Program-made: the position numbers and the translations under genes
The notes under the pieces: generated by a model
What the model was told of the DNA's origin: nothing
Database searches by the model: none
What the model saw: only the letters and a program-made list of their open reading frames with translations
Shown: positions 39,573-63,268 of the stretch, in pieces
Position numbering within the stretch: position 1 is the stretch's first letter
Layout of the letters: each line of letters begins with the position of its first letter
Assembly (NCBI GenBank): GCA_964408235.1
Contig: CAYOYN010000001.1
Location: 77,450-141,449, forward strand
DNA: 64,000 bases
Direction: 5' to 3'
Source of the DNA: Candidatus Woesearchaeota archaeon
GTDB lineage: Archaea; Nanobdellota; Nanobdellia; Pacearchaeales; GW2011-AR1

Positions 39573-39644
39573 GCGCGGGTAGTATAGTGGTTAGTATACG
39601 ACGTTGCCAACGTTGTGGCCCGGGTTCAATTCCCGGCCCGCGCA
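39573..39644 (+). tRNA. tRNA-Gly (anticodon GCC)
   Basis: Acceptor GCGCGGG/CCCGCGC. D-arm GTAT-loop-(G)TAT. Anticodon arm CGACG-TTGCCAA-CGTTG (U33, GCC, A37). T-arm CCGGG-TTCAATT-CCCGG. Discriminator A. 72 nt, no CCA. Confidence 0.8.
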
Positions 39645-39645
39645 T
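39632..39645 (+). repeat. attL core (cccggcccgcgcat) at the tRNA-Gly 3' end
   Basis: Exact 14-mer reoccurs at 61992-62005. A 14-mer offset by 2 nt reoccurs at 63255-63268. GC-rich in an AT-rich genome. Confidence 0.7.
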
Positions 39646-43226: not shown

Positions 43227-43623
43227 TATTTCGAGTTGAAAAGTAAATTATTATAAAAATAACAACCAGTGCTGCTGAGCCTATTAAGAATATTCCTGGG
43301 AAAGTTTCATTCCAAAATCTATCAGAGGCAGCTATTTCTGCTAACTGGGCTTGCAATTTCCTATCTTGAATTTGTTGATTTAACCTTTCAACTATCGAGG
43401 TGTCTTTCGTTCTAAAACATAATCTATTTCCTTCGGTTTGAGTATAACTTACTTGAACTCCCTGTGCAGCTACCGAGATATCCGACCGACTTATATCTTC
43501 AAAACAATATTCTGGACCATTCAAGACTGTTTGAAACCATCCATCAAAACCCTGGTAGATACTGCTTCCAAAGAAGAATAAAGCAATTAATCCGCCAGCG
43601 ATTAACAACATCTTTAGATTCAT
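43210..43623 (-). CDS. Small membrane protein inserted between hsdM and hsdS
   Basis: 137 aa. N- and C-terminal TM helices. Overlaps both neighbours. Confidence 0.5.
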   Translation of the reverse strand: MNLKMLLIAGGLIALFFFGSSIYQGFDGWFQTVLNGPEYCFEDISRSDISVAAQGVQVSYTQTEGNRLCFRTKDTSIVERLNQQIQDRKLQAQLAEIAASDRFWNETFPGIFLIGSAALVVIFIIIYFSTRNSGGHY

Positions 43624-44753
43624 GATACTAGTCCTCCATTAAACGCTTTTTGCATTAATGAATTGAACATTTCCCCAATATAATCTTTGTTCTTTAGTTG
43701 TTTTTCTTTCATTTTTTCAACATGTTCAATAATTGCAGCAAATTTATTTTGAAGTTCTATTGGAGGAAGAGGTATTTTTAGAGCCTTTATCTGTTTCAAA
43801 TAAAGACCTCTAACTGTTGCAGTATTGGTTCCTCCAATCATATAAGAAGTCATATTTGGTAAAGAAAGCATAGACTCGACAAATCTAGGGTTTACCTTTG
43901 TTTTATTTAATTTGAGTAAAGCCACACTTCTAGCAAATACAAATTTATCTTTTACATCAATTCTTTTTACTCTTCCAATTGTTCCAACACAAGTAATCAA
44001 TATATCATTAAATTCTGGTAGACATCTACGTGTTATTGAACTATAAGTTTCCTCAGTAACGAATGAGTTAACCTCGAGATTTATTGAATTATTAATGTCT
44101 TTAGCAGAAATGTAGGGGATGCCTTCATCAACTAGATTCGGAGTTGAATGTTCACCATCAGTTACCTTATTACAAATTTCTTCTACTGTACTGACTCTCC
44201 ATTTTTTTTTATTGTGTAATGGATCTCCAAACATCTCATAAAACATACTCTTCTGATATTCATGTGTAAATTTATCTGCCATTTCTCTTTTTTGTTTTAA
44301 GGCTTCAGCTTTTTCGAGAATTGCGACTATTTTATTTTGGGTTTCGATAGGGGGAAGTAAAATACTAAGGTCCTTTAGAAATTTGTAATGCCTACTATAT
44401 CCGGCCGAAGGTATGTCTGCCTTTCTCAGAGCATAGTAAAAATACTTACAATGAATATTATCCTTAGGAACTAATATTTTAACTCCATCCGCTCCAATTG
44501 CAAATGGAAAATCAACAAATTTTAGAATTCTAGTGTGATCTCCAAATACTACGACTGGAAGTTTGCCTGAGTAGACTTTAGAATTATCATTGGTGTATCC
44601 GGCAATAAAATTTTCTCCTTGATCAATGATAGGATATTCACCATTATCTAGAAATTCACTTTGCGGAATTTTTAATTTATTTTCAGACGCTTCTCCTTCT
44701 AAACAATCTAAAAAATCTTCTTTCTTCCAGCTAAGTTCTTTTTCAGTTTTCAT
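43620..44753 (-). CDS. hsdS: Type I restriction-modification system, specificity subunit S
   Basis: Two target-recognition halves, each followed by conserved helical repeats (QNKIVAILEKAEALKQKR / QNKFAAIIEHVEKMKEKQ). Confidence 0.85.
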   Translation of the reverse strand: MKTEKELSWKKEDFLDCLEGEASENKLKIPQSEFLDNGEYPIIDQGENFIAGYTNDNSKVYSGKLPVVVFGDHTRILKFVDFPFAIGADGVKILVPKDNIHCKYFYYALRKADIPSAGYSRHYKFLKDLSILLPPIETQNKIVAILEKAEALKQKREMADKFTHEYQKSMFYEMFGDPLHNKKKWRVSTVEEICNKVTDGEHSTPNLVDEGIPYISAKDINNSINLEVNSFVTEETYSSITRRCLPEFNDILITCVGTIGRVKRIDVKDKFVFARSVALLKLNKTKVNPRFVESMLSLPNMTSYMIGGTNTATVRGLYLKQIKALKIPLPPIELQNKFAAIIEHVEKMKEKQLKNKDYIGEMFNSLMQKAFNGGLVS

Positions 44754-45570
44754 TTGCCTTCACCATAAATAGTTGTTTGAACATCTCGAATATTTTATTA
44801 TTAAGACCTTCAGATAAATTCAGTTTTTGATCATTAACGAGTTCTTCTTCAGCGAATCTTATTAGACTAAGGCCACTGATAGAAATTAATGCAAAACATC
44901 TGAACAAATGAGATTTTTCAGCAAATTCTTTTTCTAAATTATTCAATGCGATACTAGGGTGATGATAAAGGGACATATCTCTAAAGAATCCATCCAGCTG
45001 AGATTTCTTAATGGAATTTCCTTTAAAGGTTAAAAAATATTTCTCGATAAATTCTGGCAGATTATTTTCGTTTATATTGGGAAATAATTCGTGCCAAATT
45101 TTATGGATCTTTTCATGAGGATAGTTATCCTCTTTTAACTTAGAAAAATTATTTTTTCCACTGCTTTCATCCATAATGTCCAAGAATTTTTGATAATCTA
45201 AATTCCCCATCTTCCCACCAACGAAACCTATAGAACATAAGAAATATTTTATAGCGAGATCTTTTTTTTCATTTTCTCTCAGATGATTGTAATATACTAT
45301 ATCGGCTGATTGCTCAATAGTTACCCTTACCCATGGTTGCACCAATGGATTTTCAATATTCTCACTTAATGTTTTAAATAATTTCCAGAAGCCTTCAAAG
45401 AGATAGTAAAAAAATAAATCTGGCTCTGTTAAGATCTGTTCAACAGGCCTATTTGAAAATTTATTGTTTCTCTCCTTTAAAATATTAGTAATCTTTTGGC
45501 CAGCCCTATAAATCTCGTTTAAGACTTCTTGTGATTTTTCAATTCTATCTCCCATCATTTCATCCTCCAT
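44743..45570 (-). CDS. Hypothetical protein embedded in type I RM locus
   Basis: 275-aa soluble ORF. Overlapping starts/stops with neighbours. Confidence 0.5.
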   Translation of the reverse strand: MEDEMMGDRIEKSQEVLNEIYRAGQKITNILKERNNKFSNRPVEQILTEPDLFFYYLFEGFWKLFKTLSENIENPLVQPWVRVTIEQSADIVYYNHLRENEKKDLAIKYFLCSIGFVGGKMGNLDYQKFLDIMDESSGKNNFSKLKEDNYPHEKIHKIWHELFPNINENNLPEFIEKYFLTFKGNSIKKSQLDGFFRDMSLYHHPSIALNNLEKEFAEKSHLFRCFALISISGLSLIRFAEEELVNDQKLNLSEGLNNKIFEMFKQLFMVKANEN

Positions 45571-45941
45571 TTTGTGTATCCATCTATGGGATAAGTTGCT
45601 AGTTTTTTATTTGCTATCTTGAATCTTTCTAGATTTGATGAAGTGTTGCCTTTATTTCTAAAGTCTTGCTCTAAGTTTTTGAAATCTGCCGCCAGTTCAC
45701 GGTAGCCGTGTAGCTTCTCTATTTTCTCTTTAAAAACTAAAGGGAGGATAGTACAAATAAGAGCAAATGATCCCATAATGAATATTATCAAAGCGTTATT
45801 TATCCAATTCCCAAGAAGAATAATGCTTATAATTATTGATGCAAGAATCCATAAAGTATAAAGTAGCGAATATCTATTAGCAATCATCTCCAAGGATTCC
45901 GATATATGCAGACACTTATTGCAATTTGTATTTTTACTCAT
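45555..45941 (-). CDS. Membrane protein embedded in type I RM locus
   Basis: 128 aa, 2 TM then soluble tail. Confidence 0.45.
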   Translation of the reverse strand: MSKNTNCNKCLHISESLEMIANRYSLLYTLWILASIIISIILLGNWINNALIIFIMGSFALICTILPLVFKEKIEKLHGYRELAADFKNLEQDFRNKGNTSSNLERFKIANKKLATYPIDGYTKWRMK

Positions 45942-46153
45942 CTTTTGTTAATTGCCTCCCAAACTGAGACAATGATCATAAGAATGAATAACAATGCAAG
46001 AACTCCTCCAAGAGCACCAAATACACTAAATGCTTCAAAAAAATTAGAAATGATCCCTGAGGAAAATATTAGCCCTATAAATATGAAAAATATTATAATT
46101 CCACCTATAGCTTGCACAACATTTTCAACATCACTTCTTCCTTTCTTGTTCAT
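45938..46153 (-). CDS. Small membrane protein
   Basis: 71 aa, 2 TM. 4-nt overlaps with both neighbours on the same strand. Confidence 0.4.
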   Translation of the reverse strand: MNKKGRSDVENVVQAIGGIIIFFIFIGLIFSSGIISNFFEAFSVFGALGGVLALLFILMIIVSVWEAINKR

Positions 46154-46338
46154 CTTCGACCTCCAAGACCAAGCAAAGTAGCAATTATTGCAATTACTAT
46201 TAGAATTCCAATTATTATACCATAAAAGCCCATTGCTGAGCCGAAACCACTAATTATTTCTCCAAATGCTCCAGTTGATGCTATGAGCAGAACTACAACA
46301 ATGCCAAAAGCTAATGCGATTATTGCTTTGAGTTTCAT
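46150..46338 (-). CDS. Small membrane protein
   Basis: 62 aa, 2 TM, G/A/I-rich. Confidence 0.4.
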   Translation of the reverse strand: MKLKAIIALAFGIVVVLLIASTGAFGEIISGFGSAMGFYGIIIGILIVIAIIATLLGLGGRR

Positions 46339-46703
46339 TCTACAAAGTCCCGAGGAACAGCCACGCTATCTCCCTTATGTTTGTGTATGAGTTGCTCGCG
46401 TTCTTTGAGCTTTAATTGGATCTCTTTCTGAAGTTGCTCTAGAAACTCAGAGTTTATATCTTCTGAAACAACTGCTTCCTTACCCATATCTGTTTTGACT
46501 TTCCAGGTGAATTTGTCCAGATCAGGAATATATTCAATGAGATTTCTACCAGCTACCTGAGATACATTGCCAGTCTCAAGCATCCCTTTAACAGAGTCCC
46601 TTACAAATGTAGATACATTGTCGTATCCAATATGGTTTGCGAATTTTTTAATCGCTTCAAAGTCACCCGAGTCCCATCGAACAGCCACTACTTTATTAGT
46701 CAT
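46335..46703 (-). CDS. Hypothetical protein immediately downstream of hsdR
   Basis: 122 aa. 4-nt overlap with the next gene. Confidence 0.45.
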   Translation of the reverse strand: MTNKVVAVRWDSGDFEAIKKFANHIGYDNVSTFVRDSVKGMLETGNVSQVAGRNLIEYIPDLDKFTWKVKTDMGKEAVVSEDINSEFLEQLQKEIQLKLKEREQLIHKHKGDSVAVPRDFVE

Positions 46704-46761
46704 GCCAACTGGAGAAAATCGGACTTTATAAGCTTTATTGTAATACGGCGTATTACAACTT

Positions 46762-49497
46762 TTATTGGATCCTTATACGTTCTACCTGCTTGATAATAGT
46801 ATCAAGCTGTTCAGGAGTGAATTTCTCAAGAGGTCTTTCATCAGCTAAAGGATAGGAAACAAGGTCCTTCTTATCAAGGTGTTTGTTTATAGCAAAGAAA
46901 GAAGCTAGAATTCTTAAAAACTGAATTTGGTCAGCATTGTACTCTTTATTCTTCACAATAATAAGCCCATCAAATTGTCTTCTGATTTCCTCTTCTGGGT
47001 TAGGCAAGTCATGGAGTTCTAAAATATTTCTTAGGAACATAACAAAGTCTTGATTTTTTTGAATGTTTTCCAGAGACCATTGAGAGTTAAGTTTAGAAAG
47101 ATCTTGCGATATTTGTAAGAGTTCTTTCCAGGTAACTCCTTCTTTTGCCATCTTAGAAACAAGAGGATTCTGCTTAAACTTTTCAAAGGCAGGATTTTCT
47201 TTGATCTCCATTTTTGACCGCTCAATATTTAATATAAAGTCTGGAGCATCTACCTTGAGAATACGATTTCTCTCTTTTTCATAGAAGATCATTAATGGGG
47301 CTATCTCACGTATCAAGAAATCAATATCTTCAAAACTTATTTCTTCCCAGAAACTATCTTGCAAGACTTTTATGATCTGTTCTGATTTTCTCTTTACAGT
47401 TTCTAAGTTTGTTGCCCAGACACTTTCAACTCTTTTTTTAACAAAATCTTTTTCTTTATCTATGGCTTCAAGGTTACTTTCTTTAACGTATTTGAAGAGC
47501 TCTGTACAATGTAAAATAAACGTCTGAACTCTGCCATCTCCAAACTCAGAAAACTTTAACAGAGGAGCAACTTCATTCTTTAGTTCTTGTATATGTTCTT
47601 CTAAGTTATATTTCTTAGAAACTACTTTCTTAATCATCTCAGCTTTCGGTTTAACAATAAAAGACTTCTGGTCTATCTTTGATAATTCTCCGACTATTCG
47701 AGTTTCAATAATTTTTTTTTCTTCAGGACTTAATTTTTTCTTAAGAAGCTCCAACTCTTTTTCAAATATTTTTATCCTAACATCTTCTGTTAATTTCTTG
47801 TTATCGGAAGTTTCTAGTTTATGTTCTTTAACATTAGAATAATCTCCGAACTTAAAATCGAATATTCTGAAGTCTTTCTTATCATGAACATCATCGAAAA
47901 CAGGTAACCATTTAATTCCTTGAGGATTACTTATCGCAGATTGGTTTCTTGTTCCTCTACCAACCATTTGCCAAAATCTGATGTAAGAAAAAACAGGTGT
48001 AACAAATACAAGATTGCAAACTTCGGGAATATCAACACCAGTATCAAGAACTCCAACCGAAAGAGCTATTCTGGGGCTGGATTCTTTTTGGAATCTTTCA
48101 ACAGCATCCATATATCGATCATAACGAGAAACTATTACTTCTACGTCTTTTGCCTCAACATTGGGATATAATCGTTTGAAAGTGCCTCTTAAAGCTTCAG
48201 CATGCTTCACATTAATGCAGAAGAAAATAGTTTTACACGGCTTACCATCATCAGACTTATAACATCGATTCATAAACTCAGTGACAATTAAAGAGTTAGT
48301 TTTCTCATCAGTAAAATGCTTAACGAATTTTGTTCCAGGAATCTCAAAGTGTTCTGGATCTTCATCTTGCTTAATCAAATTTGTCTTAAGTTCTTTATCT
48401 AAGTCCATTCCTCTAATTCCTAATCCAAGAACTTTTGTTTCGATAACCTGGGCATCATAAGGGACAAGAACAGCATCTTTAACTGCTTCGTCATAACTAT
48501 ATTCAACAGTAGGTTTTCCTCTTTCACATTCAAATAAATCATAAGTGTTTTTTGCTTCGCTCTTTGAAGGTGTTGCAGTTAGTCCTATATTAAGAGAATC
48601 GAAATATTTCATCACTAGATTTTGCCTATCATAATAAGATCTATGTGCTTCATCAAATACTATTAAATCAAAAAATCCTGGTCCAAATTTTTGAAAATAA
48701 AATCCTCCTTCAGGACTTTTAGCCATTAGAGTTTGAACTGTTGAAACATATATTCTTTTATCTTTAGAAAACTCTTGTTCATTTAACAAACAAGCAGGCT
48801 CACTATGAAGAAATTTCTGGAATCCCTTATAGAAAGCATTTCTACCTAAAGAGATTCTATCCACAACAAACAATACATTTTGAACACGTTTAGCTCTAAT
48901 AAGAGATTCGATAATCGCAACAGCAACTCTTGTTTTTCCAGTTCCGGTTGCCATATTAATTAGAGCTTTTCTGTGCCCTAAACTGAAGTGTTCTAAAGTT
49001 CTTCTAGTAACTTCTATTCCTTTAGATCTATCAACAATGTTAGTATTAACTTCTAGTTTCAAGAGATCTTTTTTATTTTTGTATAAATCATACTTTCTCT
49101 TGAGATCTTTTTGGGAAAATGGTCCGGCAACTTCTCTTAATCCATAATCCTTTTCTTTAATATACCATTTCTTACCATTAGTAAGAAATATTGGAATCGG
49201 ATAACCTGTTTGGGCTTCCACGTCTTTTTGATAAGTTGTTGCTTGAATAACTCCCTTCTCTGCGTCTAACGAAAATCTTTTAGCTTCTATAACTGCTAAA
49301 GGAGTGTTATCTTCCCAAACAAGTAAGTAGTCCATGAACCTTCCTGAAGCATCTTTAAAATAATATTCGAATTTTCCAACTTTGAACTTAGAAGAAACAG
49401 AATTAACTTCTTTCTTAACATATTTATCAAGCCATCCTTCTTCTTTTAGGAGTGGATCAATGTGCCTTTCTCGCGTTTCTTTCTCGGATAGGTCCAT
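46762..49497 (-). CDS. hsdR: Type I restriction enzyme, R subunit (helicase-nuclease)
   Basis: N-terminal PD-(D/E)xK (LLVWED...VIEAKRF). Walker A (ATGTGKTRVAVA). DEAH-box (VFDEAHRS). SF2 helicase motifs (TATP, QMVGRGTR). Confidence 0.9.
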   Translation of the reverse strand: MDLSEKETRERHIDPLLKEEGWLDKYVKKEVNSVSSKFKVGKFEYYFKDASGRFMDYLLVWEDNTPLAVIEAKRFSLDAEKGVIQATTYQKDVEAQTGYPIPIFLTNGKKWYIKEKDYGLREVAGPFSQKDLKRKYDLYKNKKDLLKLEVNTNIVDRSKGIEVTRRTLEHFSLGHRKALINMATGTGKTRVAVAIIESLIRAKRVQNVLFVVDRISLGRNAFYKGFQKFLHSEPACLLNEQEFSKDKRIYVSTVQTLMAKSPEGGFYFQKFGPGFFDLIVFDEAHRSYYDRQNLVMKYFDSLNIGLTATPSKSEAKNTYDLFECERGKPTVEYSYDEAVKDAVLVPYDAQVIETKVLGLGIRGMDLDKELKTNLIKQDEDPEHFEIPGTKFVKHFTDEKTNSLIVTEFMNRCYKSDDGKPCKTIFFCINVKHAEALRGTFKRLYPNVEAKDVEVIVSRYDRYMDAVERFQKESSPRIALSVGVLDTGVDIPEVCNLVFVTPVFSYIRFWQMVGRGTRNQSAISNPQGIKWLPVFDDVHDKKDFRIFDFKFGDYSNVKEHKLETSDNKKLTEDVRIKIFEKELELLKKKLSPEEKKIIETRIVGELSKIDQKSFIVKPKAEMIKKVVSKKYNLEEHIQELKNEVAPLLKFSEFGDGRVQTFILHCTELFKYVKESNLEAIDKEKDFVKKRVESVWATNLETVKRKSEQIIKVLQDSFWEEISFEDIDFLIREIAPLMIFYEKERNRILKVDAPDFILNIERSKMEIKENPAFEKFKQNPLVSKMAKEGVTWKELLQISQDLSKLNSQWSLENIQKNQDFVMFLRNILELHDLPNPEEEIRRQFDGLIIVKNKEYNADQIQFLRILASFFAINKHLDKKDLVSYPLADERPLEKFTPEQLDTIIKQVERIRIQ

Positions 49498-55130: not shown

Positions 55131-57434
55131 TCAATTTTTGGTGACAATCCTACTAATTATGCTTGCTAAATGTCTTTTGTCATGACATTTGCCTAATTTT
55201 GAATAACTTGTTCTTAAGTTTCTATTAGTTACAACAAAAAACCACCTATCAGGATAATTTTTATTCAAATTCTCAATTTTATTTAACAAATCTTTTTGAT
55301 TATGTTTAAGCAATTTTCCTGTTTCAACTTCAATAGCATATTCTTTCCCATCAACTTTGAAAACAATATCTGGCTTAACTGTCTCAAACATCTGTACTTT
55401 ATTTGTAAACTTCTTTATGTAGTTAAAAATATCATGGGTCATGAATATATGTTGAGGACTTTCATTATCTCTTTTTTCTATAAGATATCTTTCCTTTCTT
55501 TTTGATAAGATTCCTTGAAATGAATATGGCTTGTACCCTAAGTTTTTGAGGTAGTCTATATCTTCATCAGAGAGATCCTTTAATTTAACACAACCAATAT
55601 CCTCATCAACATTTATCTGAGTCTTTTGTCTTTTTTTCTTTTCTTTAGTTTGTCGATCCATATGCTTCTGTACTTCATCTAAACGTTCTTCCTCAGTTTG
55701 AATATGTGAATTAGCAAGCAATTCATCAGGTTTCGTGGTTATAATATTATGTTCTTCTGGAGATGAAACTATCTTTATTTCTGAATGTTCGTCATCCATA
55801 ATCAAGATTCCTTCCCCGATTCCTGCAGTAAGTAAGGAATTAACTTCTGACTCGCTTAAAAAGAAGGTCTTTTGTATATTCCTTATTACTGCTGGTTTTT
55901 GTCTCATAAGCAATGTGTAAGAGCTGTTAGCCAATACAGATTTCCCAGCTTCAGATTCAAGCATGCCTTCAACTTCTTGATTAATAAGAAATAATGCAAG
56001 GTTAAACTTTCTGCAGGTTTTTACTATCTCAAAAATGTAAGATGCATCGCTAGATTGTCTCAAAAGCGACCAAGCCTCATCAATAACAAGTAACTTTCTG
56101 TTAAGATCTCTTTTCATTTTCATATAAATATAATCAAGCACCAAAAACATCATTAAAGGTTTGATTTGTTTTGGTAGATTAGCTATATTAAAACAAACAA
56201 ATTGATTATCGAAGTTAATCTTAGTTTTTTGATTAAGGAATGAAAATACTCCGTTTACATACCAATCTAAACGGCTGGTTAAACTTCTCAAAGTTTGTTT
56301 TTCAGACATGATTGTCTTCTTTTCCATATCTTTAAGGACTTTAAGCAAATCCTCTAATAATGGAGGTTTTCTACTCCAACTCTTTACTTTATTGGCATAA
56401 ATTTTCTTTTTCTGGTAAGTTTTTGTTAGGGCTCTCTCCATAATTGCTTTTTGAGGTTCTGAAAGATCTCCAAGCATGATTGGTAAAATATCCCACAATG
56501 CGAGTCTTTTTTCAGGATAATCATGTCCCATTAAATCTAATGGATTAATTATAGTTTCAGAAATTGTGCTTAAATCGATTAATTGCCCATTAAAACGCTC
56601 AACAAGGGCTTTGTATTCTCCTTGGGGATCAATAACCATTACTTTAGTGCCATTTAGTAAATACCTTGAAATTAATAGCTTTGCCATATAACTCTTACCT
56701 GAACCAGAACTAGCCAAACATAATCCATTTGGATTACTTAGATTAAAAATATCTTTTATTATGGGAATATTATTCTTATTTTGGCCAAACCAGATCCCTG
56801 TTTTATCTGCTTGAAGGAAAGAAGAAGTAAATGGGAAGAAAGCAGATAATGCTTCTGTAGGCACACTTCTAACTTGATTTAACTTGTTAATCGCTAAAGG
56901 CGAACAAGACTGAAAACCTTGAGCCATCCTAAATGTAGGTTGCCTTGGAATAATTAGAAGAGAGTTAAGTTCTGCCTGTATCCTTCTTGTCAATAAGTCT
57001 AATTCTTCCCTATTTTTAGCCCTACAGTTAAAGTATAAACTTACATTAAACAACTTATCCTTACCCTTCTGCAAGTTTGATAAAACTGCTTTAGTGTCTT
57101 TGTATTTTATTTGCAAGCTTGGGTTAAGAATATTCTTGCTTTTAGCAGAGAATAAATCTCCTCTTTGTTTTTGGAGTTCTCTATTAAGAAAAACCATCAT
57201 AGTTTCAATGTCATATGGCTCTATGTGCATTGAAAGATCAAAATTACCTGTTGTGCTAATAATCTTATCAAGAAAGCCTGTTTCTACACTTCTTGGATAG
57301 CCATGAGCGTAAATAGTCCTATTGAGAATATTAGTATGTTCATTAGAAATACTTAGATAATTAGAAGAGTTTTCTATTTTAATTGGAAAAAAGTCTAAAT
57401 TCTCATTCTTACTTTCCTTTTTCTTCCAAAACAT
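55131..57434 (-). CDS. VirB4/TrbE/CedB-like conjugation ATPase with C-terminal PD-(D/E)xK-like domain
   Basis: Walker A (LASSGSGKSYMA). VirB4-type Walker B DEAW (LLVIDEAWSLL). C-terminal ~120 aa with D-x-n-E-x-K pattern (DIVFKVDGKEYAIEVETGK). Confidence 0.75.
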   Translation of the reverse strand: MFWKKKESKNENLDFFPIKIENSSNYLSISNEHTNILNRTIYAHGYPRSVETGFLDKIISTTGNFDLSMHIEPYDIETMMVFLNRELQKQRGDLFSAKSKNILNPSLQIKYKDTKAVLSNLQKGKDKLFNVSLYFNCRAKNREELDLLTRRIQAELNSLLIIPRQPTFRMAQGFQSCSPLAINKLNQVRSVPTEALSAFFPFTSSFLQADKTGIWFGQNKNNIPIIKDIFNLSNPNGLCLASSGSGKSYMAKLLISRYLLNGTKVMVIDPQGEYKALVERFNGQLIDLSTISETIINPLDLMGHDYPEKRLALWDILPIMLGDLSEPQKAIMERALTKTYQKKKIYANKVKSWSRKPPLLEDLLKVLKDMEKKTIMSEKQTLRSLTSRLDWYVNGVFSFLNQKTKINFDNQFVCFNIANLPKQIKPLMMFLVLDYIYMKMKRDLNRKLLVIDEAWSLLRQSSDASYIFEIVKTCRKFNLALFLINQEVEGMLESEAGKSVLANSSYTLLMRQKPAVIRNIQKTFFLSESEVNSLLTAGIGEGILIMDDEHSEIKIVSSPEEHNIITTKPDELLANSHIQTEEERLDEVQKHMDRQTKEKKKRQKTQINVDEDIGCVKLKDLSDEDIDYLKNLGYKPYSFQGILSKRKERYLIEKRDNESPQHIFMTHDIFNYIKKFTNKVQMFETVKPDIVFKVDGKEYAIEVETGKLLKHNQKDLLNKIENLNKNYPDRWFFVVTNRNLRTSYSKLGKCHDKRHLASIISRIVTKN

Positions 57435-58194
57435 TCGTCACCTCCATTTTATCTCTAGAAATAAAGAATTTTCTTACCAAAGAGTCTAATTCCAAGTCAT
57501 TTAATCTAAAACTCTTTAGTCCAATATTTGCAAGTTTGCTTTGACAAATTTGTAGTTGAATATTTATATCAGATTTTTCTAAGATTACTAGATAAAATAC
57601 TCTATTCATTACATCATTCTCTTTAGCAAGAGATTCTAATTGTCTTTTATATCCCTCAAAAAGTTCTTTGAATTTTTTAGAATCGATTAACCTTTTCTTA
57701 AATTCTTCAAAATATTCAGTAAGATTAAGCTGTTCAGTACTCATTATTATCTGGACCTTGAAGTCAAGGCTATTAAGAAATTTCTGAAATGCTATAGCAA
57801 TTGCTTGTTTAGATTCTTCTGGCTTAATTGAGAAATTAATAGGGCTTATCTTTAGAATTGCTAATTTCTTGTTGTCTTTTGTAAATATTAGACTTTCTTT
57901 TATTTCCTTAATTGGGATAAATTTGCCTAACTTATTTGGTAATTGAATTAACTTCGATTTATACCAATAATACCAGTTTCTTACATGCTTATCTAATTCT
58001 AGAAAAATAAATCCTATTCCTAGGCCACTCAACATAGAAATAATTGGTATCTTTATAGCAAGATGTAGATCTGTCTTAAAAAATATAGTAAGAATAATTG
58101 GAGCAAACACAAAAAGATAAGCTAGTTGCTTAAAGTTTAGACCAAACATTATTTTTTCTTTGTATTCTAAAGATTGAGGTATCTCATAGCCCAT
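57409..58194 (-). CDS. VirB3-like membrane protein with cytoplasmic extension
   Basis: Two N-terminal TM helices. Gene immediately precedes and overlaps the VirB4-like gene by 26 nt, the canonical VirB3 position. Confidence 0.45.
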   Translation of the reverse strand: MGYEIPQSLEYKEKIMFGLNFKQLAYLFVFAPIILTIFFKTDLHLAIKIPIISMLSGLGIGFIFLELDKHVRNWYYWYKSKLIQLPNKLGKFIPIKEIKESLIFTKDNKKLAILKISPINFSIKPEESKQAIAIAFQKFLNSLDFKVQIIMSTEQLNLTEYFEEFKKRLIDSKKFKELFEGYKRQLESLAKENDVMNRVFYLVILEKSDINIQLQICQSKLANIGLKSFRLNDLELDSLVRKFFISRDKMEVTNVLEEKGK

Positions 58195-59003
58195 TATTTA
58201 TTCCACCTTCCTACTTTATTGTAAATGCTAAATGCAGCCCTTGTAATAGCAAAAAATAACAGAACAACCATTAATATATCGATGAGGAGGAATGCTGAGA
58301 TTAAGATAATAATCTGTAAATTACTGAAAACTCCGACATTCATTAATGCTGAAAATCCAATTAATAATATTGCATCAAAGAACGTTATAAAAATCGAAAT
58401 TCCTAATATATTTAGTATCAAAGAACCAAAACCCCTTAGTTTAGGTAAAAAGTAAAAGAAAATGCCTATGGGCAAAAGAACTATGCCTATTGCAACTATC
58501 GCATACCTTAAAGTTAATACAAGAGCAGTTAAAATTAATACTGCAACGTAAACTATTCCTAAACTTAATGCTAAACCAAGCCCTATTGTGCTACTTACTT
58601 GTATGCTAAAGAAATTTTCATCAACAATATTCAATGTTGCAGAAGTCATAGAAGATGCCAGATCTAAAACTAATTGGTAGAGAAAGAATGAAGATTGAAC
58701 TAAAACAATCATTATTATGATATTTCTTATCCATTCCTTTGCTGATTCTCTTTTTTCAGAATCATAACCTGAAATAAGAAAGCTTATTCCGACTCCAACT
58801 AAAAGCAACGCATAGAACATAGAAAGCATGTAGACAATAATTACCCATAAACTCAAGAAAATCTGAGTATGAACATCTGCAGATAATAAATTAAGAACTA
58901 TTTGCAAAAATGGCTGAATTGGAGCATTAACTACGTTAAATAGAAAATTAAAGAACATCTCTGGAAGACAAGCTCCAAGATTAACTAATCCACAATTAGG
59001 CAT
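58194..59003 (-). CDS. Polytopic membrane protein (VirB6/TrbL-like candidate) containing a pilin-like motif
   Basis: 6-7 TM helices. Internal DSEKRESAKEW segment paralogous to the pilin-like gene motif SDPGKRESSKN. Confidence 0.5.
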   Translation of the reverse strand: MPNCGLVNLGACLPEMFFNFLFNVVNAPIQPFLQIVLNLLSADVHTQIFLSLWVIIVYMLSMFYALLLVGVGISFLISGYDSEKRESAKEWIRNIIIMIVLVQSSFFLYQLVLDLASSMTSATLNIVDENFFSIQVSSTIGLGLALSLGIVYVAVLILTALVLTLRYAIVAIGIVLLPIGIFFYFLPKLRGFGSLILNILGISIFITFFDAILLIGFSALMNVGVFSNLQIIILISAFLLIDILMVVLLFFAITRAAFSIYNKVGRWNK

Positions 59004-59391
59004 ATTTTCTAAAAAATGAAGTCTTAGTTAGAAATGAGAATATAATATAATTAAACAAAAGAAGGATAACTATTTTAAAAAATAAAATGAATCTACTTGT
59101 TTCTATTTCATTAAGAGAAAAAGTAAAGTTTGCTTGTGCTTGAGGATAATTTGGACCTTGAGATCCTTGGAATCCGTATTCTTGATCCCATAGAATGCAA
59201 ACCGCCTCTCTTCTTTCTTGTCCAGATGTTTGGCCCCAAATATAATTGCAATCAGCCCTCTTATCCATATTAGTAAAATTAGAGCATTTCAAGTTTGAGG
59301 GACAAGCAGTAACTACTTGCAAAGGCAATAATAAAATCAAAATTCCTATTGCAAGTAAATATACTGCTTCTCTGGTTAATGGTTTATTCAT
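58996..59391 (-). CDS. Secreted Cys-rich protein with C-terminal TM anchor
   Basis: Signal peptide. 4 Cys in the mature domain. C-terminal hydrophobic helix. Confidence 0.45.
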   Translation of the reverse strand: MNKPLTREAVYLLAIGILILLLPLQVVTACPSNLKCSNFTNMDKRADCNYIWGQTSGQERREAVCILWDQEYGFQGSQGPNYPQAQANFTFSLNEIETSRFILFFKIVILLLFNYIIFSFLTKTSFFRKYA

Positions 59392-59392
59392 G

Positions 59393-59719
59393 CTAAATCA
59401 TAAACTGCACAAACCAAGGTGCTGCCCAAATTATTGCAAGTCCAATAAACACATACATAATAGTGTTCTTTGAACTTTCGCGCTTTCCAGGGTCAGAACC
59501 ACTAGTAATGTAACTAACTCCTGCAATTACAAGCATTATAACTGCAATAAAAGTCGCAGCATACTTGATTAGATTATAGATACGTATAATTGGCTCAAGT
59601 ATTGTATTGAATGTCTGTTGCTCTTCTTGGGAGATAGTTCCATTAAACTGAGCACTGACAATCTGTAAAGCAAAGATATATGCAATAATCAAAAGGCTGG
59701 CAAGTTTTTGTACTTTCAT
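59393..59719 (-). CDS. VirB2/TrbC-like conjugative pilin candidate
   Basis: Signal peptide (ASLLIIAYIFALQIVSA). Two hydrophobic helices separated by a short polar loop. ~108 aa. Heads the transfer operon. Confidence 0.5.
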   Translation of the reverse strand: MKVQKLASLLIIAYIFALQIVSAQFNGTISQEEQQTFNTILEPIIRIYNLIKYAATFIAVIMLVIAGVSYITSGSDPGKRESSKNTIMYVFIGLAIIWAAPWFVQFMI

Positions 59720-59931
59720 TCTTCCACCTCCTTTTCAGTTGATTGTTCACGCCATTCGTCCAAGTAAGCTTTAACTTTACGAAATCTCTCTAGCTGTTCC
59801 TCGAAATCGTTTTCGTACTTCCATTTTATGAAAGTTAAACAGTTTTCGCAGAACTCTCTTTCTTTAGTTTCAGCTTCGCAGATAATGCAAATTTTCATGT
59901 CTGTGCTGTGATCTAAAATGTTTATAGGCAA
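59716..59931 (-). CDS. Small zinc-finger protein
   Basis: CIICEAETKEREFCENC (CxxC...CxxC) in 71 aa. 4-nt overlap with the pilin-like gene. Confidence 0.4.
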   Translation of the reverse strand: MPINILDHSTDMKICIICEAETKEREFCENCLTFIKWKYENDFEEQLERFRKVKAYLDEWREQSTEKEVEE

Positions 59932-60682
59932 TCGGAGACCATTTAGTCAACTAACTGGACGTCTAAGTAGTCGACTAGATAGACGCCCAGTTAGTCCCCG
60001 ATTTTTTATAACTCTCAAAAAGAGAAATCCAGTTATGGAAATGAATAAGTTAATTTTAGGCGAATGCCTGGAAGTAATGAAAAATATGCCCAATCAATCT
60101 GTTGACTTAATTATTACAGATCCACCTTACGGAGATAATATTGCTTATTATGGGAATAAAACCATAGAAAATAATGAAAATCCCTTACTAAACTGTAGGG
60201 CTTTGGTTGAAGCTTACAGAATACTAAAGAAAAATAAAACAGTTTACAACTTTACTAATTGGAAACACTTGCCTTTTCTTACAGAATTTGTTACTAAATA
60301 TACCAAATTTAAGATAAGACATGTAATTGTATGGAAAAAGCCAAACTTTGGGATGGGTTATGCTTTTAGACATCAATTTGAGCTTATTCTAGTATTGGAA
60401 AAGGGAAATCCTAAATATAACCTAACAAACTTCTCAAATGTGCAGGAATCTAAGTTTATTTCAGGTAAGTCTATCCATCCTCACCAGAAACCTTTAGATC
60501 TATTGACTAAAATGGTTAAACATAGTTCAAAAGAAGGAGATTTAGTATTTGATCCATTTTGCGGAAGTGGATCTACTTGCATTTCTGCTAAAATGAATGG
60601 TAGAAACTGGCTCGGAATAGAACTAGATCAAAAATACTTACAAATTGCTAAGGAAAGGTTAGAAGAGGATCAAAATGGATAA
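59918..60682 (+). CDS. DNA methyltransferase (beta-class N4-C/N6-A, DPPY motif); real start probably at 60035
   Basis: Motif IV DPPY (LIITDPPYGD) precedes motif I (VFDPFCGSGSTCI). Listed ORF starts at 59918, but the first 39 residues are Arg/Pro-rich and run through the dyad. MEMNKLILGECLE at 60035 is the likely start. Confidence 0.75.
   Translation: MFIGNRRPFSQLTGRLSSRLDRRPVSPRFFITLKKRNPVMEMNKLILGECLEVMKNMPNQSVDLIITDPPYGDNIAYYGNKTIENNENPLLNCRALVEAYRILKKNKTVYNFTNWKHLPFLTEFVTKYTKFKIRHVIVWKKPNFGMGYAFRHQFELILVLEKGNPKYNLTNFSNVQESKFISGKSIHPHQKPLDLLTKMVKHSSKEGDLVFDPFCGSGSTCISAKMNGRNWLGIELDQKYLQIAKERLEEDQNG
59950..59995. promoter_or_regulatory. 46-bp perfectly centred dyad: 12-bp inverted arms flanking a 10-bp palindrome
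   Basis: ACTAACTGGACG (59950-59961) and CGCCCAGTTAGT (59984-59995; 11/12 complementary) flank TAGTCGACTA (59968-59977). All share a centre at 59972.5. Lies between the divergent transfer operon and the MTase gene. Confidence 0.5.
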
Positions 60683-61639: not shown

Positions 61640-61956
61640 AAAATAAAATAACTTGGATATTTGGCTCTATTTTTGGACTTTATGCTTTATCTTATGTTTT
61701 GGCAGGCTATTATGGAGTAATCCATTACGGAAATTACTATGAACTATTAAATAAACCAATTTTCTTTCTGGTTAGTATTTCTTTTTATGTTATAGCTGTT
61801 CCTTTTTATTTTTCAGGTTTAATTCCTGGAGATGGTTCTGGACCTATAGATCGTTTTTGGATTGAAGGGGTTATTCTTCCAATTCTTATTATAACAATAT
61901 GGACTTTGTTCGGAATGGTCATCGGCTGGTTAATTCAAAAGAGACAAGAGAAATAG
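61636..61956 (+). CDS. Small polytopic membrane protein, paralogue 3 of 3
   Basis: MKNKITWIFGS start. GDGSGPID loop motif. Basic C-terminus (QKRQEK). Confidence 0.5.
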   Translation: MKNKITWIFGSIFGLYALSYVLAGYYGVIHYGNYYELLNKPIFFLVSISFYVIAVPFYFSGLIPGDGSGPIDRFWIEGVILPILIITIWTLFGMVIGWLIQKRQEK

Positions 61957-61991: not shown

Positions 61992-62005
61992 CCCGGCCCG
62001 CGCAT
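61992..62005 (+). repeat. attR-like direct repeat of tRNA-Gly 3' end (cccggcccgcgcat) inside an 8-bp-stem hairpin
   Basis: Exact 14-nt match to 39632-39645. Embedded in atgcgcgg...ccgcgcat inverted repeat (61981-62005). Confidence 0.65.
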
Positions 62006-62966: not shown

Positions 62967-62967
62967 A

Positions 62968-63254: not shown

Positions 63255-63268
63255 CGGCCCGCGCATAT
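63255..63268 (+). repeat. Second att-like repeat copy (cggcccgcgcatat)
   Basis: Exact 14-nt match to 61994-62007. 11-nt core ggcccgcgcat shared with the tRNA-Gly 3' end. Confidence 0.55.

What the first reader, a model, noticed from the sequence alone, without database searches (positions are those of the whole stretch)
57409..59931. Minimal T4SS/Ced-like transfer module with duplicated pilin-like KRES motif
The gene order is Zn-finger, then VirB2-like pilin (signal peptide plus two helices), then Cys-rich secreted protein, then 7-TM protein, then VirB3-like 2-TM protein, then VirB4. This mirrors bacterial virB2-virB3-virB4 / trbC-trbD-trbE synteny in compact form. The pilin-like protein and the polytopic protein share the motif [SD]-x-x-KRES-[AS]-K directly before a hydrophobic helix (SDPGKRESSKN... 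vs DSEKRESAKEW...). This suggests the large membrane protein arose by fusion with, or duplication of, a pilin module. Such a module in an AT-rich (possibly DPANN or other small-genome) archaeon would be a largely unexplored DNA-transfer apparatus.
Basis: partly seen in the sequence, partly recalled or inferred. Interest (0 to 1): 0.6.

Follow-up and report, generated by a model that had tools for sequence, protein, structure and literature searches.

The report
Minimal conjugation-type secretion module, DPANN archaeal island
A tiny symbiotic-type (DPANN) archaeon carries, on a 22-kb island inserted in a tRNA gene, a stripped-down version of the bacterial conjugation machine.

Summary
Six tightly packed minus-strand genes (59931 to 55131) encode:
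- a Zn-ribbon protein;
- a VirB2/TrbC-type pilin (Pfam T4SS_pilin 54 bits, TrbC 34 bits, both above threshold);
- a Cys-motif surface-anchored protein;
- a 6-7-helix VirB6-like protein;
- a VirB3(PrgI)+VirB4 N-domain protein;
- a VirB4 ATPase.

The shared KRES motif is not chance. It is the centre of a 53-residue hairpin homologous between pilin and VirB6-like families (hhalign 96% probability, E 1.5e-9; score 62.9 against 20.3 at most in controls). Two independent pilin models hit 20 and 26 of 59 VirB6-like homologues. This VirB2/VirB6 relationship was already published for CedA1/CedA and Agrobacterium (Beltran 2023).

Corrections and additions:
- The "VirB3-like" gene also holds the VirB4 N-domain. 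VirB4 is an inherited, functional gene fission; most relatives have one ~980-aa protein.
- VirB4 ends in a conserved PD-(D/E)xK nuclease-like domain.
- The module lies in a 22.4-kb island bounded by tRNA-Gly att repeats, with an integrase.
- Relatives are Pacearchaeota/Woesearchaeota/Nanoarchaeota MAGs, often with the same integrase next to tRNA-Asp.
- No relaxase or coupling protein was found.

By sequence the module is closest to monoderm (MPF-FATA, Mycoplasma ICE, Patescibacteria-type) T4SS, not Ced. It is a new variant of a known kind.

The parts
59716..59931 (-). Zn-ribbon protein (71 aa from a TTG start; gene callers use a 60-aa form starting at 59898). First gene of the operon, possibly a regulator.
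   Evidence: CxxC-x9-CxxC seen in the sequence. Only sub-threshold Pfam double-zinc-ribbon hits. Orthologues occupy the same position in 6 related loci. dN/dS about 0.1.
59393..59719 (-). VirB2/TrbC-type T4SS pilin (108 aa): signal peptide, two TM helices, and the loop SGSDPGKRESSKN.
   Evidence: Pfam T4SS_pilin PF18895 at 54.4 bits (GA 26.6) and TrbC PF04956 at 34 bits (GA 27.9). NCBIfam Mbov_0395 pilin-like model at E 4e-6. Hydrophobic segments at 3-27, 47-76 and 86-108. Found in 15 related loci.
58996..59391 (-). Cys-motif surface protein (131 aa): signal peptide, C-x11-C-x-Y motif, variable ectodomain and C-terminal TM anchor. Candidate adhesin or pilus-associated specificity factor.
   Evidence: No family hit in Pfam, NCBIfam or PHROGs. 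In related loci the same slot holds 123-142-aa or 437-466-aa proteins sharing the N-terminal Cys motif and the C-terminal anchor. In L028 it is fused to the VirB6-like protein.
58194..59003 (-). VirB6/TrbL-like polytopic membrane protein (269 aa, 6-7 helices).
   Evidence: AF2 model with pLDDT 83.6 and seven long helices. Foldseek top 4 of the PDB are TrwI/VirB6 (E 0.03-0.06, probability 0.87-0.99, TM 0.27-0.40). Pfam TrbL_3 hits in about a fifth of the listed homologues, marked weak for the one checked. Lies between the pilin and VirB3/4 genes in all loci. 126 homologues found.
58689..58847 (-). Pilin-like hairpin inside the VirB6-like protein (aa 53-105; TM, loop ISGYDSEKRESAKEW, TM).
   Evidence: hhalign probability 96.3%, E 1.5e-9; controls score 20.3 at most against 62.9. 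20 of 59 homologues hit Pfam T4SS_pilin and 26 of 59 hit the NCBIfam pilin-like model.
57409..58194 (-). VirB3 (PrgI-like, 2 TM) fused to the VirB4 N-terminal (TrsD/TraC-like) domain (261 aa). First half of a split VirB3-VirB4.
   Evidence: Pfam PrgI at 27.9 bits (GA 27) over aa 5-78. NCBIfam VirB4_plasma model positions 3-285 at E 2.9e-15 and TrsD at E 1.4e-4. Precomputed PF26593 TraC-like hit. Fused to the ATPase in most relatives.
55131..57434 (-). VirB4 ATPase, second half (767 aa), with its own Shine-Dalgarno GGAGGTGA and ATG. Overlaps the upstream gene by 26 nt in the +1 frame.
   Evidence: Pfam P-loop_TraG 87 bits, DUF87 and AAA_10. NCBIfam CD1110 family 292 bits and Mbov_0397 253 bits. 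Walker A SGSGKS and Walker B LLVIDEAW visible in the sequence. The split is conserved in L004, L005 and L030, each with its own ribosome-binding site. dN/dS about 0.05-0.06.
55134..55622 (-). C-terminal domain of VirB4 (aa 605-767): small N-terminal alpha/beta module plus a PD-(D/E)xK nuclease-like core (E658, S659, H662, P688-D689, E702-V-E704, K719 in full-length numbering).
   Evidence: These residues are invariant in 14 sequences and the domain is conserved in all 25 relatives. AF2 pLDDT 88. Foldseek hits are Cdn1, NucS/EndoMS, R.BspD6I small subunit, Can2, Hjc, RecU, McrC and TnsA (E from 2e-3 upward, probability up to 0.98). Pfam AHJR-like at E 1.4e-4 in 2 of 14 sequences and Hjc in 1. 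669 clusters in the representative library, always C-terminal.
59918..60682 (+). N6/N4 DNA methyltransferase, divergent from the operon. A conserved neighbour of the module.
   Evidence: Pfam N6_N4_Mtase at E 3e-36. Homologues lie next to the module in 9 related loci (cluster C3; 7 hits).
39573..39645 (+). tRNA-Gly(GCC) with the attL core CCCGGCCCGCGCAT at its 3' end (39632-39645).
   Evidence: ARAGORN and Rfam; repeat analysis.
39785..41002 (+). Tyrosine integrase of the island (405 aa).
   Evidence: PHROG 1 integrase at E 2.6e-14. 58% identical to the integrase next to tRNA-Asp and the T4SS module in L005. Six homologues in relatives hit Pfam Phage_integrase.
41751..49497 (-). Type I restriction-modification cargo of the island (hsdM 41751-43226, hsdS 43620-44753, hsdR 46762-49497).
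   Evidence: Pfam N6_Mtase, HsdM_N, Methylase_S, ResIII and EcoEI_R_C.
61992..62005 (+). attR core: direct repeat of the tRNA-Gly 3' end. Right boundary of the 22.4-kb island.
   Evidence: 14 of 14 identical, GC-rich in a 32% GC sequence. The 12-mer CGGCCCGCGCAT occurs three times on the same strand against 0.00 expected in 100 shuffles.
63255..63268 (+). Third att-core copy. With 61992-62005 it brackets a 1.26-kb remnant holding a 162-aa ORF and an RHH/ParE toxin-antitoxin pair.
   Evidence: Pfam DUF7557 and ParE_toxin.

Best explanation
The operon encodes a minimal, monoderm-type type IV secretion (conjugation-type) apparatus of a DPANN archaeon. It is carried on a 22.4-kb island integrated into tRNA-Gly.

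Shown by homology:
- a VirB2-type pilin;
- a VirB6-like platform or channel whose N-terminal part is itself a pilin-like hairpin (the source of the duplicated KRES motif);
- a membrane-anchored VirB3-VirB4 ATPase, here split into two translationally coupled genes.

Inferred mechanism:
- VirB4 hexamers docked on VirB3 and VirB6 extract pilin from the membrane and polymerise it on the homologous hairpin of VirB6, forming a short pilus or tube through the S-layer.
- The Cys-motif type-I membrane protein with a variable ectodomain provides partner recognition.
- The PD-(D/E)xK nuclease-like domain fused to the cytoplasmic end of VirB4 processes the DNA substrate at the channel entrance. It would substitute for the relaxase and coupling protein that are missing.

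Most likely purpose, at roughly 50%: horizontal transfer of the island itself, as an ICE-like element. The integrase would excise it and the neighbouring methylase would protect it.

Confidence in the identity of the machine is about 0.9. Confidence in the export/ICE function is about 0.5.
For: Identity of the parts: pilin, PrgI, VirB4 models; VirB6 fold and TrbL_3; pilin hairpin in the VirB6-like protein.

All six genes are under purifying selection, with dN/dS 0.05-0.2 against L004 and L005. The split VirB4 keeps its own SD+ATG in four genomes.

Island context:
- tRNA-Gly, integrase and three same-strand att cores.
- Housekeeping genes flank both sides.
- In relatives the same integrase family lies 1-4 kb upstream of the module. 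In L005, L012, L015 and L016 it sits next to tRNA-Asp, so the module is found at different tRNA loci with different cargo.
- Two copies occur in one contig (L013 and L014).
- Neighbourhoods are dominated by R-M systems, methylases, Fic and integrases.

Nuclease-like domain: invariant E...PD...ExE residues, a confident model whose fold hits are almost all PD-(D/E)xK nucleases, and AHJR-like/Hjc sequence hits.

Precedents: archaeal conjugative plasmids also lack a recognisable relaxase (review PMC12857230). From established knowledge, MOB-C relaxases are PD-(D/E)xK enzymes.
Against: - No relaxase, oriT or VirD4/FtsK-type coupling protein was found in the island or among the 25 most frequent families next to related modules. 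Self-transfer is therefore unproven.
- No excised circle or empty site was found, and no attR was found within the fetched flanks of relatives.
- VirB6 membership rests on weak scores: Foldseek E 0.03-0.06 with TM 0.27-0.40, and weak TrbL_3 hits.
- The nuclease motif has E where the canonical lysine sits, and the fold E-values are modest (2e-3 and above), so catalytic activity is not established.
- In the analogous Patescibacteria systems the T4SS appears to serve the epibiotic lifestyle rather than element transfer (PMC12102498).
Confidence: 0.55

Rival explanations
1. The apparatus is an uptake or feeding device, like Ced/Ted DNA importers or the Patescibacteria T4SS. The DPANN cell would use the pilus and channel to pull DNA or other macromolecules from a host or neighbour. 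The VirB4-fused nuclease would cut or degrade incoming DNA for recombination or nucleotide salvage. The location on an island would then be incidental.
For: - The parts list is the same as Ced/Ted (VirB2, VirB6, VirB4; PMC9905601) and as Patescibacteria systems (VirB2 PF18895, VirB6, PrgI, TrsD, VirB4, usually no relaxase).
- No relaxase or coupling protein is present.
- The module is widespread in reduced-genome DPANN lineages, with 50-82% VirB4 identity across 29 loci.
- A nuclease at the cytoplasmic end fits processing of imported DNA.
- T4SS pili have been proposed as conduits for host macromolecules in Minisyncoccota (bioRxiv 10.64898/2026.06.21.733656).
Against: - The module is repeatedly linked to integrases at tRNA genes and to R-M and methylase cargo. 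It sits at different tRNA loci in different genomes and is duplicated in one genome.
- It shows no sequence affinity to Ced proteins: CedD scores 48 bits against a cut-off of 600, and neither the pilin nor the VirB6-like protein hits a Ced model.
Confidence: 0.3
2. The system translocates protein effectors or toxins into host or competitor cells rather than DNA.
For: The minimal module lacks DNA-processing proteins of known types. Fic-domain proteins recur near related modules. The variable surface protein suggests target recognition.
Against: A conserved nuclease-like domain with a small putative DNA-binding module fused to VirB4, and a conserved DNA methylase next to the operon, point to DNA as the substrate. 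No candidate effector gene is conserved beside the module.
Confidence: 0.1
3. The module is a decaying remnant. The break in VirB4 would be a frameshift pseudogene or an assembly error, and the motif similarity a by-product of hydrophobic composition.
For: VirB4 is one ORF in most relatives but two overlapping ORFs here. Both proteins are TM-rich, which can inflate similarity scores.
Against: - The same +1 split, each with its own GGAGG ribosome-binding site and ATG, is present in four independently assembled genomes that are 72-82% identical.
- Both halves have dN/dS of 0.05-0.1.
- Identical sequence is found on four contigs (three places shown) from separate samples.
- Composition-preserving controls score 20.3 at most against 62.9.
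- Curated pilin models hit a third to nearly half of the VirB6-like family.
Confidence: 0.03

Closest known systems
Patescibacteria (CPR) type IV secretion system (Quinonero-Coronel et al. 2025, PMC12102498; Wang et al. 2023)
   Same: The component set is the same: VirB2-like pilin of Pfam PF18895, VirB6-like protein, PrgI/VirB3, a TrsD-like VirB4 N-domain protein and an MPF-FATA-type VirB4. A relaxase is usually absent. The host is an ultrasmall, reduced-genome episymbiont.
   Different: The host here is an archaeon. VirB3 is fused to the VirB4 N-domain, or to the whole of VirB4 in most relatives; the CPR survey found no VirB3-VirB4 fusions. VirB4 carries a C-terminal nuclease-like domain. 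The module lies on integrase/tRNA-bounded islands rather than near oriC. There is a single pilin gene rather than an array.
Mycoplasma ICE conjugation genes (NCBIfam Mbov_0395 pilin-like protein and Mbov_0397 VirB4) and Firmicutes MPF-FATA systems (CD1110-family VirB4; pGO1 TrsC/TrsD/TrsE; pCF10 PrgI)
   Same: These give the best sequence-model matches for the pilin (Mbov_0395) and for VirB4 (CD1110 292 bits; Mbov_0397 253 bits, with a further 55 bits from the N-terminal gene). The VirB4 model includes the N-terminal membrane anchor. The envelope is monoderm and the genes are carried by an integrative element.
   Different: Scores lie below the equivalog cut-offs (325 and 590). No relaxase, coupling protein, VirB8-like protein or cell-wall hydrolase was found. 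The host is archaeal and VirB4 has the extra nuclease-like domain.
Ced (Sulfolobales) and Ted (Thermoproteales) archaeal DNA-import systems (van Wolferen 2016; Beltran 2023, PMC9905601)
   Same: These are archaeal minimal sets of VirB2-like pilin, VirB6-like channel and VirB4-like ATPase. The N-terminal region of the VirB6-like protein is homologous to the pilin, which is exactly the relationship seen here.
   Different: No detectable sequence similarity to Ced proteins in NCBIfam (only CedD, at 48 bits against a cut-off of 600). Ced and Ted are chromosomal and domesticated, whereas this module sits on an integrated island. The pilin here has a cleavable signal peptide, as in Ted and bacterial pilins. 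VirB3 is present.
R388 TrwI / Agrobacterium VirB6 with VirB2 (bacterial diderm T4SS stalk)
   Same: TrwI chains are the top structural matches of the polytopic protein. VirB2/VirB6 N-terminal homology has also been reported for Agrobacterium.
   Different: The structural scores are weak (E 0.03-0.06, TM 0.27-0.40). No VirB5 or VirB7-11 homologues were seen, although this was not searched for specifically, and the envelope has no outer membrane.
PD-(D/E)xK nucleases: archaeal Holliday-junction-resolvase-like (AHJR/Hjc), NucS/EndoMS, the Can2/Cdn1 nuclease domains, and MOB-C type relaxases
   Same: The predicted fold and the E...PD...ExE motif of the VirB4 C-terminal domain match this superfamily.
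   Different: The domain is fused to a VirB4 ATPase. The third motif position is E rather than K. No family-level sequence membership was found and no activity is known.

Membership tests
VirB2/TrbC-type T4SS pilin (Pfam PF18895, PF04956) | Profile match above the curated threshold | tested here: met
   T4SS_pilin 54.4 bits (GA 26.6); TrbC 34.0 bits (GA 27.9).
VirB2/TrbC-type T4SS pilin (Pfam PF18895, PF04956) | Small protein with a signal peptide and two TM helices joined by a short charged loop | tested here: met
   Hydropathy segments at 3-27, 47-76 and 86-108; loop SGSDPGKRESSKN.
VirB2/TrbC-type T4SS pilin (Pfam PF18895, PF04956) | Polymerises into an extracellular pilus | not testable with these tools
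   Needs microscopy or structural work on cells.
VirB6/TrbL | Polytopic inner-membrane protein (5 or more TM) encoded beside VirB2/3/4 | tested here: met
   6-7 helices. Sits between the pilin and VirB3/4 genes in every locus.
VirB6/TrbL | Sequence-profile match to VirB6/TrbL models | tested here: inconclusive
   The window protein has no Pfam or NCBIfam hit. About a fifth of the listed homologues have a precomputed TrbL_3 PF19590 hit, marked weak for the one whose mark was shown. The profile finds nothing in PDB sequences.
VirB6/TrbL | Fold similarity to solved VirB6 (TrwI) | tested here: inconclusive
   The top 4 of 350,542 PDB chains are TrwI chains, but with E 0.03-0.06 and TM 0.27-0.40.
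VirB6/TrbL | N-terminal region homologous to the cognate pilin (reported for CedA and Agrobacterium VirB6) | tested here: met
   hhalign 96.3%, E 1.5e-9, with controls; pilin models hit 20 and 26 of 59 homologues.
VirB4 ATPase (MPF-FATA type) | P-loop TraG/AAA_10 ATPase domain with Walker A and B | tested here: met
   P-loop_TraG 87 bits, AAA_10 46 bits, DUF87 57 bits. GSGKS and VIDEAW visible in the sequence.
VirB4 ATPase (MPF-FATA type) | VirB4 N-terminal domain | tested here: met
   Encoded by the upstream 261-aa gene (NF045975 positions 3-285; TrsD; TraC-like). Contiguous with the ATPase in most relatives.
VirB4 ATPase (MPF-FATA type) | Equivalog-level membership of a named subfamily (CD1110 or Mbov_0397) | tested here: not met
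   292 bits against a cut-off of 325; 253 bits against a cut-off of 590. It belongs to the superfamily but not to a named subfamily.
VirB3/PrgI | Two-TM small domain with a profile match | tested here: met
   PrgI 27.9 bits (GA 27), aa 5-78; two hydrophobic segments at 21-67. The score is borderline.
Ced/Ted DNA-import system | Sequence homology to CedA, CedA1, CedB or Ted proteins | tested here: not met
   NCBIfam gives only a CedD ATPase match of 48 bits against a cut-off of 600, and nothing for the pilin or VirB6-like protein. No direct profile comparison with CedA or TedA was possible.
Ced/Ted DNA-import system | Chromosomal, domesticated, not on a mobile element | tested here: not met
   The module lies inside an island bounded by an integrase and att repeats.
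Ced/Ted DNA-import system | Imports DNA | not testable with these tools
   Needs genetics or a transfer assay.
Integrative and conjugative element (ICE) | Site-specific integrase and flanking att repeats at the insertion site | tested here: met
   The integrase (PHROG 1, E 2.6e-14) abuts tRNA-Gly. The 14-nt att core is repeated at 61992, and a 12-nt core occurs three times against 0 expected.
Integrative and conjugative element (ICE) | Mating-pair-formation T4SS | tested here: met
   See the VirB2, VirB3, VirB4 and VirB6 rows.
Integrative and conjugative element (ICE) | Relaxase/oriT and a coupling protein (T4CP) | tested here: not met
   No such Pfam family in the island ORFs scanned, nor among the 25 most frequent families in 102 neighbours of related modules. 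The VirB4-fused nuclease is only a hypothetical substitute.
Integrative and conjugative element (ICE) | Observed excision or transfer | tested here: inconclusive
   The empty-site pattern search returned only unrelated tRNA-Gly genes.
PD-(D/E)xK nuclease superfamily (VirB4 C-terminal domain) | Restriction-endonuclease-like fold | tested here: met
   Model pLDDT 88. Fold hits are nearly all PD-(D/E)xK nucleases, with probability up to 0.98 and E 2e-3 and above. AHJR-like and Hjc Pfam hits occur in some members.
PD-(D/E)xK nuclease superfamily (VirB4 C-terminal domain) | Catalytic E...(P)D...(D/E)xK residues | tested here: inconclusive
   Invariant E, PD and E-V-E, with E in place of K, plus an invariant downstream K. 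Activity is untested.

The most novel reading that the evidence does not exclude
These islands may be the first family of self-transmissible (ICE-like) elements of DPANN archaea, and may run on a radically reduced conjugation machine. On this reading a single VirB3-VirB4 polypeptide with a C-terminal PD-(D/E)xK nuclease combines the roles of motor, coupling protein and relaxase. The VirB6 platform is a pilin that has grown extra helices. The same machine could move DNA between DPANN cells and their hosts, including across domains, given near-identical genes in bins labelled as CPR bacteria.
Probability: 0.25. Interest if true: 0.8.

Novelty: new variant of a known kind. Interest (0 to 1): 0.55.

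Why it matters
DPANN archaea are uncultured or barely cultured episymbionts, and how they exchange DNA or material with hosts is an open question. The literature I could search does not describe a T4SS in these lineages. That includes a December 2025 T4SS review and the 2025 Patescibacteria T4SS survey. Known archaeal systems are limited to Sulfolobus and Thermococcus plasmids and Ced/Ted.

This locus gives a concrete, widespread and compact candidate: five or six genes, 126 VirB6-like homologues, and 669 clusters of the VirB4 tail domain.

It also gives an unusually clear sequence-level example of VirB6 arising from, or giving rise to, the pilin. That bears on how pilus assembly is templated. 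Finally, it offers a testable idea for relaxase-less archaeal conjugation: a nuclease fused to VirB4.

Tried and rejected
- Sequence-profile searches of the VirB6-like family and of the VirB4 tail against PDB sequences found nothing significant.
- Pfam, NCBIfam and PHROGs gave no family for the Cys-motif protein or the Zn-ribbon.
- A search of JGI metagenome contigs for an empty attB site (the tRNA-Gly 3' end followed by 'AT') returned nine unrelated DPANN tRNA-Gly genes whose flanks do not match. It gives no evidence for or against excision.
- No attR repeats were found within the 18-kb fetched loci that have tRNA-Asp next to the integrase. Those elements may be longer than the flanks.
- The pseudogene or assembly-error reading of the split VirB4 was considered and rejected.
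- The compositional-artefact reading of the KRES similarity was considered and rejected.
- My first clustering lumped the pilin, VirB6-like and middle proteins into one cluster. For the middle proteins I set this link aside, because some of my ORF calls overlapped the pilin gene in another frame. I did not check which BLAST pairs produced it.
- The island's GC content does not differ from the flanks (0.321 against 0.331), so composition gives no evidence on how recently it was acquired.

Full report
**1. What is in the sequence**

Between 59931 and 55131 on the minus strand lie six ORFs that abut or overlap by 1-26 nt:
- a 71-aa CxxC...CxxC Zn-ribbon protein (59716-59931);
- a 108-aa protein with a signal peptide and two hydrophobic helices (59393-59719);
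- a 131-aa Cys-containing protein with an N-terminal signal-like segment and a C-terminal TM segment (58996-59391);
- a 269-aa polytopic protein (58194-59003);
- a 261-aa protein with two N-terminal TM segments (57409-58194);
- a 767-aa P-loop ATPase (55131-57434).

Each precedes a hydrophobic helix. The only caveat is that the VirB4 gene it mentions lies outside the stated coordinates.

**2. Identity of the parts**

- **Pilin.** It passes the curated thresholds of two pilin families: T4SS_pilin at 54.4 bits against 26.6, and TrbC/VirB2 at 34.0 against 27.9. It also matches the NCBIfam Mycoplasma-ICE pilin-like model.
- **VirB4.** The 767-aa protein matches P-loop_TraG, DUF87 and AAA_10 and NCBIfam VirB4 models. 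The CD1110 family gives 292 bits and Mbov_0397 gives 253 bits, covering model positions 294-893.
- **VirB3 plus VirB4 N-domain.** The 261-aa protein matches positions 3-285 of the same Mbov_0397 VirB4 model, as well as TrsD and PrgI. The '2-TM VirB3-like' gene is thus VirB3 plus the VirB4 N-terminal domain, and VirB4 is split in two.
- **The split.** In 20 related loci the whole protein is one ORF of 976-1025 aa. Only the window and its closest relatives (L004, L005, L030; 72-82% identical) have the split, always into the +1 frame. In each of them the second ORF has its own GGAGG ribosome-binding site and ATG. Both halves have dN/dS of about 0.05-0.1. Identical sequence was assembled in several samples. 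This is an inherited, functional gene fission and not an error or a pseudogene. Separate TrsD-like and VirB4 proteins are also the rule in pGO1-type and Patescibacteria systems.
- **VirB6-like protein.** The polytopic protein has no direct family hit. Its family was sampled as 126 homologues, 59 of them aligned as A2. The AF2 model is confident (pLDDT 83.6) and shows seven long helices. Its four best Foldseek matches in the whole PDB are TrwI/VirB6 chains of the R388 T4SS, with probability 0.87-0.99 but E 0.03-0.06 and TM 0.27-0.40. About a fifth of the listed homologues carry a Pfam TrbL_3 hit, marked weak for the one whose mark was shown. With its invariant position between the pilin and VirB3/4 genes, VirB6-like is the best assignment, but on weak scores.

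**3. The KRES motif**

K-R-E-x-[AS]-K is invariant or nearly so in both families, in a longer shared consensus. The pilin reads TSGSDPGKRExAKNM and the VirB6-like protein reads ISGYDxxKRExAKxW.

Profile-profile alignment of the pilin family (A3) with the VirB6-like family (A2) gives 96.3% probability, E 1.5e-9 and score 62.9. It aligns pilin 48-100 with VirB6-like 53-105, which is TM helix, loop, TM helix. The reversed pilin profile scores 14.2 and 30 column-shuffled profiles score 9.7-20.3, so hydrophobic composition does not explain the match.

Two curated pilin models give independent support. Pfam T4SS_pilin hits 20 of 59 VirB6-like homologues, two of them above the gathering score. NCBIfam Mbov_0395 hits 26 of 59.

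It is not new as a concept. Beltran et al. [quoted passage not shown] They report the same result, with lower significance, for Agrobacterium VirB2 and VirB6 (PMC9905601). The present family is a particularly clear case of that relationship.

**4.

*(a) A nuclease-like tail on VirB4.* The last ~165 residues of VirB4 form a domain conserved in all 25 relatives. It has invariant residues E-S-x-x-H, P-D, E-V-E-T-G, K and W.
- The AF2 model (pLDDT 88) retrieves almost only PD-(D/E)xK nucleases: Cdn1, NucS/EndoMS, the R.BspD6I small subunit, Can2, Hjc, RecU, McrC and TnsA. The best E is 2e-3 and probabilities reach 0.98.
- Two family members hit Pfam AHJR-like (E 1.4e-4) and one hits Hjc.
- A profile search of 1.84 billion representatives finds 669 clusters, with the domain always at the C-terminus. 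The sampled ~340-aa hits are VirB4 C-terminal fragments.
- Stand-alone or split-off copies also exist (the 139-aa gene after VirB4 in L033).

*(b) A variable 'middle' gene.* The Cys-rich protein belongs to a variable slot. All versions share a signal peptide, a C-x11-C-x-Y motif and a C-terminal TM anchor. The ectodomain is either ~80 aa or ~400 aa, and in L028 the protein is fused to the VirB6-like protein. A plausible reading, though only an inference, is a partner-specific adhesin or pilus-associated factor.

*(c) An integrated island.* The module sits on a mobile island.
- tRNA-Gly(GCC) at 39573-39644 is followed by a tyrosine integrase at 39785-41002 (PHROG 1, E 2.6e-14).
- The GC-rich 3' end of the tRNA (CCCGGCCCGCGCAT) recurs at 61992-62005. 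A 12-nt core recurs again at 63255. All three copies are on the same strand, with 0.00 expected in shuffles.
- This defines a 22.4-kb island holding the integrase, a type I R-M system, a small cluster of enzyme genes, the T4SS operon, a DNA methylase and three small membrane proteins. A 1.26-kb remnant with an RHH/ParE pair follows it.
- Housekeeping genes flank both sides: ThrRS with the archaeal editing domain, GluRS and PPDK on the left, and a thermosome on the right.
- In relatives the same integrase family lies 1-4 kb upstream of the module, next to tRNA-Asp in four loci. It is followed by the same methylase and a small conserved protein that looks like a ribbon-helix-helix fold by eye (not tested against any family library). 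One contig carries two copies (L013 and L014).
- Neighbourhoods are rich in R-M systems, methylases, Fic and DUF2779. No relaxase or VirD4/FtsK-type coupling protein appears in the island or among the 25 commonest neighbour families.

**5. Host**

All 29 related loci come from MAGs labelled Nanoarchaeota, Pacearchaeota, Woesearchaeota or 'archaeon'. A few are labelled Bdellovibrionales, Babeliales, Methanosarcinales or, for one protein, Staskawiczbacteria; these are probably mis-binned. The DPANN guess is supported.

**6. How it most likely works**

Homology shows a VirB2 pilin, a VirB6-like platform with a pilin-like hairpin, and a membrane-anchored VirB3-VirB4 ATPase.

By analogy with solved T4SSs, I infer that VirB4 extracts pilins from the membrane and stacks them on the VirB6 hairpin to build a pilus or conduit through the archaeal envelope. 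The variable Cys-motif protein would mediate contact. The nuclease-like tail of VirB4 would act on DNA at the cytoplasmic mouth of the channel.

Because the module is a core part of tRNA-integrating islands found at different sites with different cargo, I favour ICE-like self-transfer (about 0.5). In that model the VirB4-fused nuclease stands in for the missing relaxase and coupling protein.

The main rival (about 0.3) is a Ced/Patescibacteria-like uptake device that feeds the reduced-genome cell with host DNA or other macromolecules. Effector delivery (about 0.1) and decay (about 0.03) are less likely.

**7. Comparison with known systems and novelty**

By sequence the module is closest to monoderm MPF-FATA systems: CD1110-type VirB4, the Mycoplasma ICE pilin-like protein and VirB4, and PrgI and TrsD. 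In composition it is closest to the Patescibacteria T4SS. It resembles Ced/Ted in being an archaeal VirB2/VirB6/VirB4 minimal set with pilin/VirB6 homology. It fails Ced membership on both sequence and genomic context.

I found no description of a T4SS in these DPANN lineages in the searchable literature. The 2025 T4SS review covers only Sulfolobus and Thermococcus plasmids for archaea. The literature search is limited to open-access text.

I rate the finding as a new variant of a known kind. It is a solid, interesting annotation-level discovery with a testable mechanistic twist, the VirB4-nuclease fusion on an archaeal ICE-like island. It is not a categorically new system.

Noticed in passing
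window 61992-63268: There are three same-strand copies of the tRNA-Gly att core (39634, 61994, 63255). The last two bracket a 1.26-kb segment holding a 162-aa orphan ORF and an RHH(DUF7557)/ParE toxin-antitoxin pair. It looks like the remnant of a second element inserted in tandem. A further 17/18-nt repeat (39742-39759 and 62589-62606) lies just inside each unit.
   Followed up: partly
window 57409-57434, and L004, L005, L030: VirB3-VirB4 is split into two genes overlapping in the +1 frame, and the second has its own GGAGG ribosome-binding site. The split is confined to the window's closest relatives; elsewhere the protein is one ORF of ~980 aa. In L033 it is split into three genes (430, 545 and 139 aa), with the nuclease-like domain as the separate last gene.
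   Followed up: yes
L013 and L014 (both on contig JAIORZ010000011.1, about 42 kb apart): One archaeal MAG contig carries two complete copies of the module.
   Followed up: no
L028:4241-6274: The variable surface protein (long form) and the VirB6-like protein are fused into one 677-aa ORF. This suggests the two physically interact.
   Followed up: no
window 60811-61956: Three consecutive small multi-TM proteins (139, 139 and 106 aa) lie between the methylase and attR. They have no family hits and are only marginally similar to each other. One has a homologue in L005. They could be entry-exclusion or immunity factors.
   Followed up: partly
window 49885-54807: The island also carries a cluster of enzyme-like genes: histidine phosphatase, CYTH, an AAA_28-like protein, DUF2064, radical SAM, a 309-aa protein with an AbrB/MazE-like N-terminus, and NUDIX. 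Their function is unknown. This is unusual cargo that may bear on nucleotide or cofactor metabolism.
   Followed up: no
window 58968-59003 (VirB6-like aa 1-12): Two cysteines (C4 and C12, in CGLxNLGxCLP) at the extreme N-terminus of the VirB6-like protein are invariant in 59 homologues. They may form a disulphide or a metal site.
   Followed up: no
P0004; L008, L019, L022: Near-identical or clearly orthologous genes sit in bins labelled as CPR (Staskawiczbacteria), Bdellovibrionales, Methanosarcinales and Babeliales. Mis-binning is most likely, but transfer of the island between organisms is not excluded.
   Followed up: no
L034, L035, L038: tRNA-Gly genes of related metagenomic contigs carry an insertion after the anticodon loop, presumably an archaeal tRNA intron. 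The window's copy has none.
   Followed up: no
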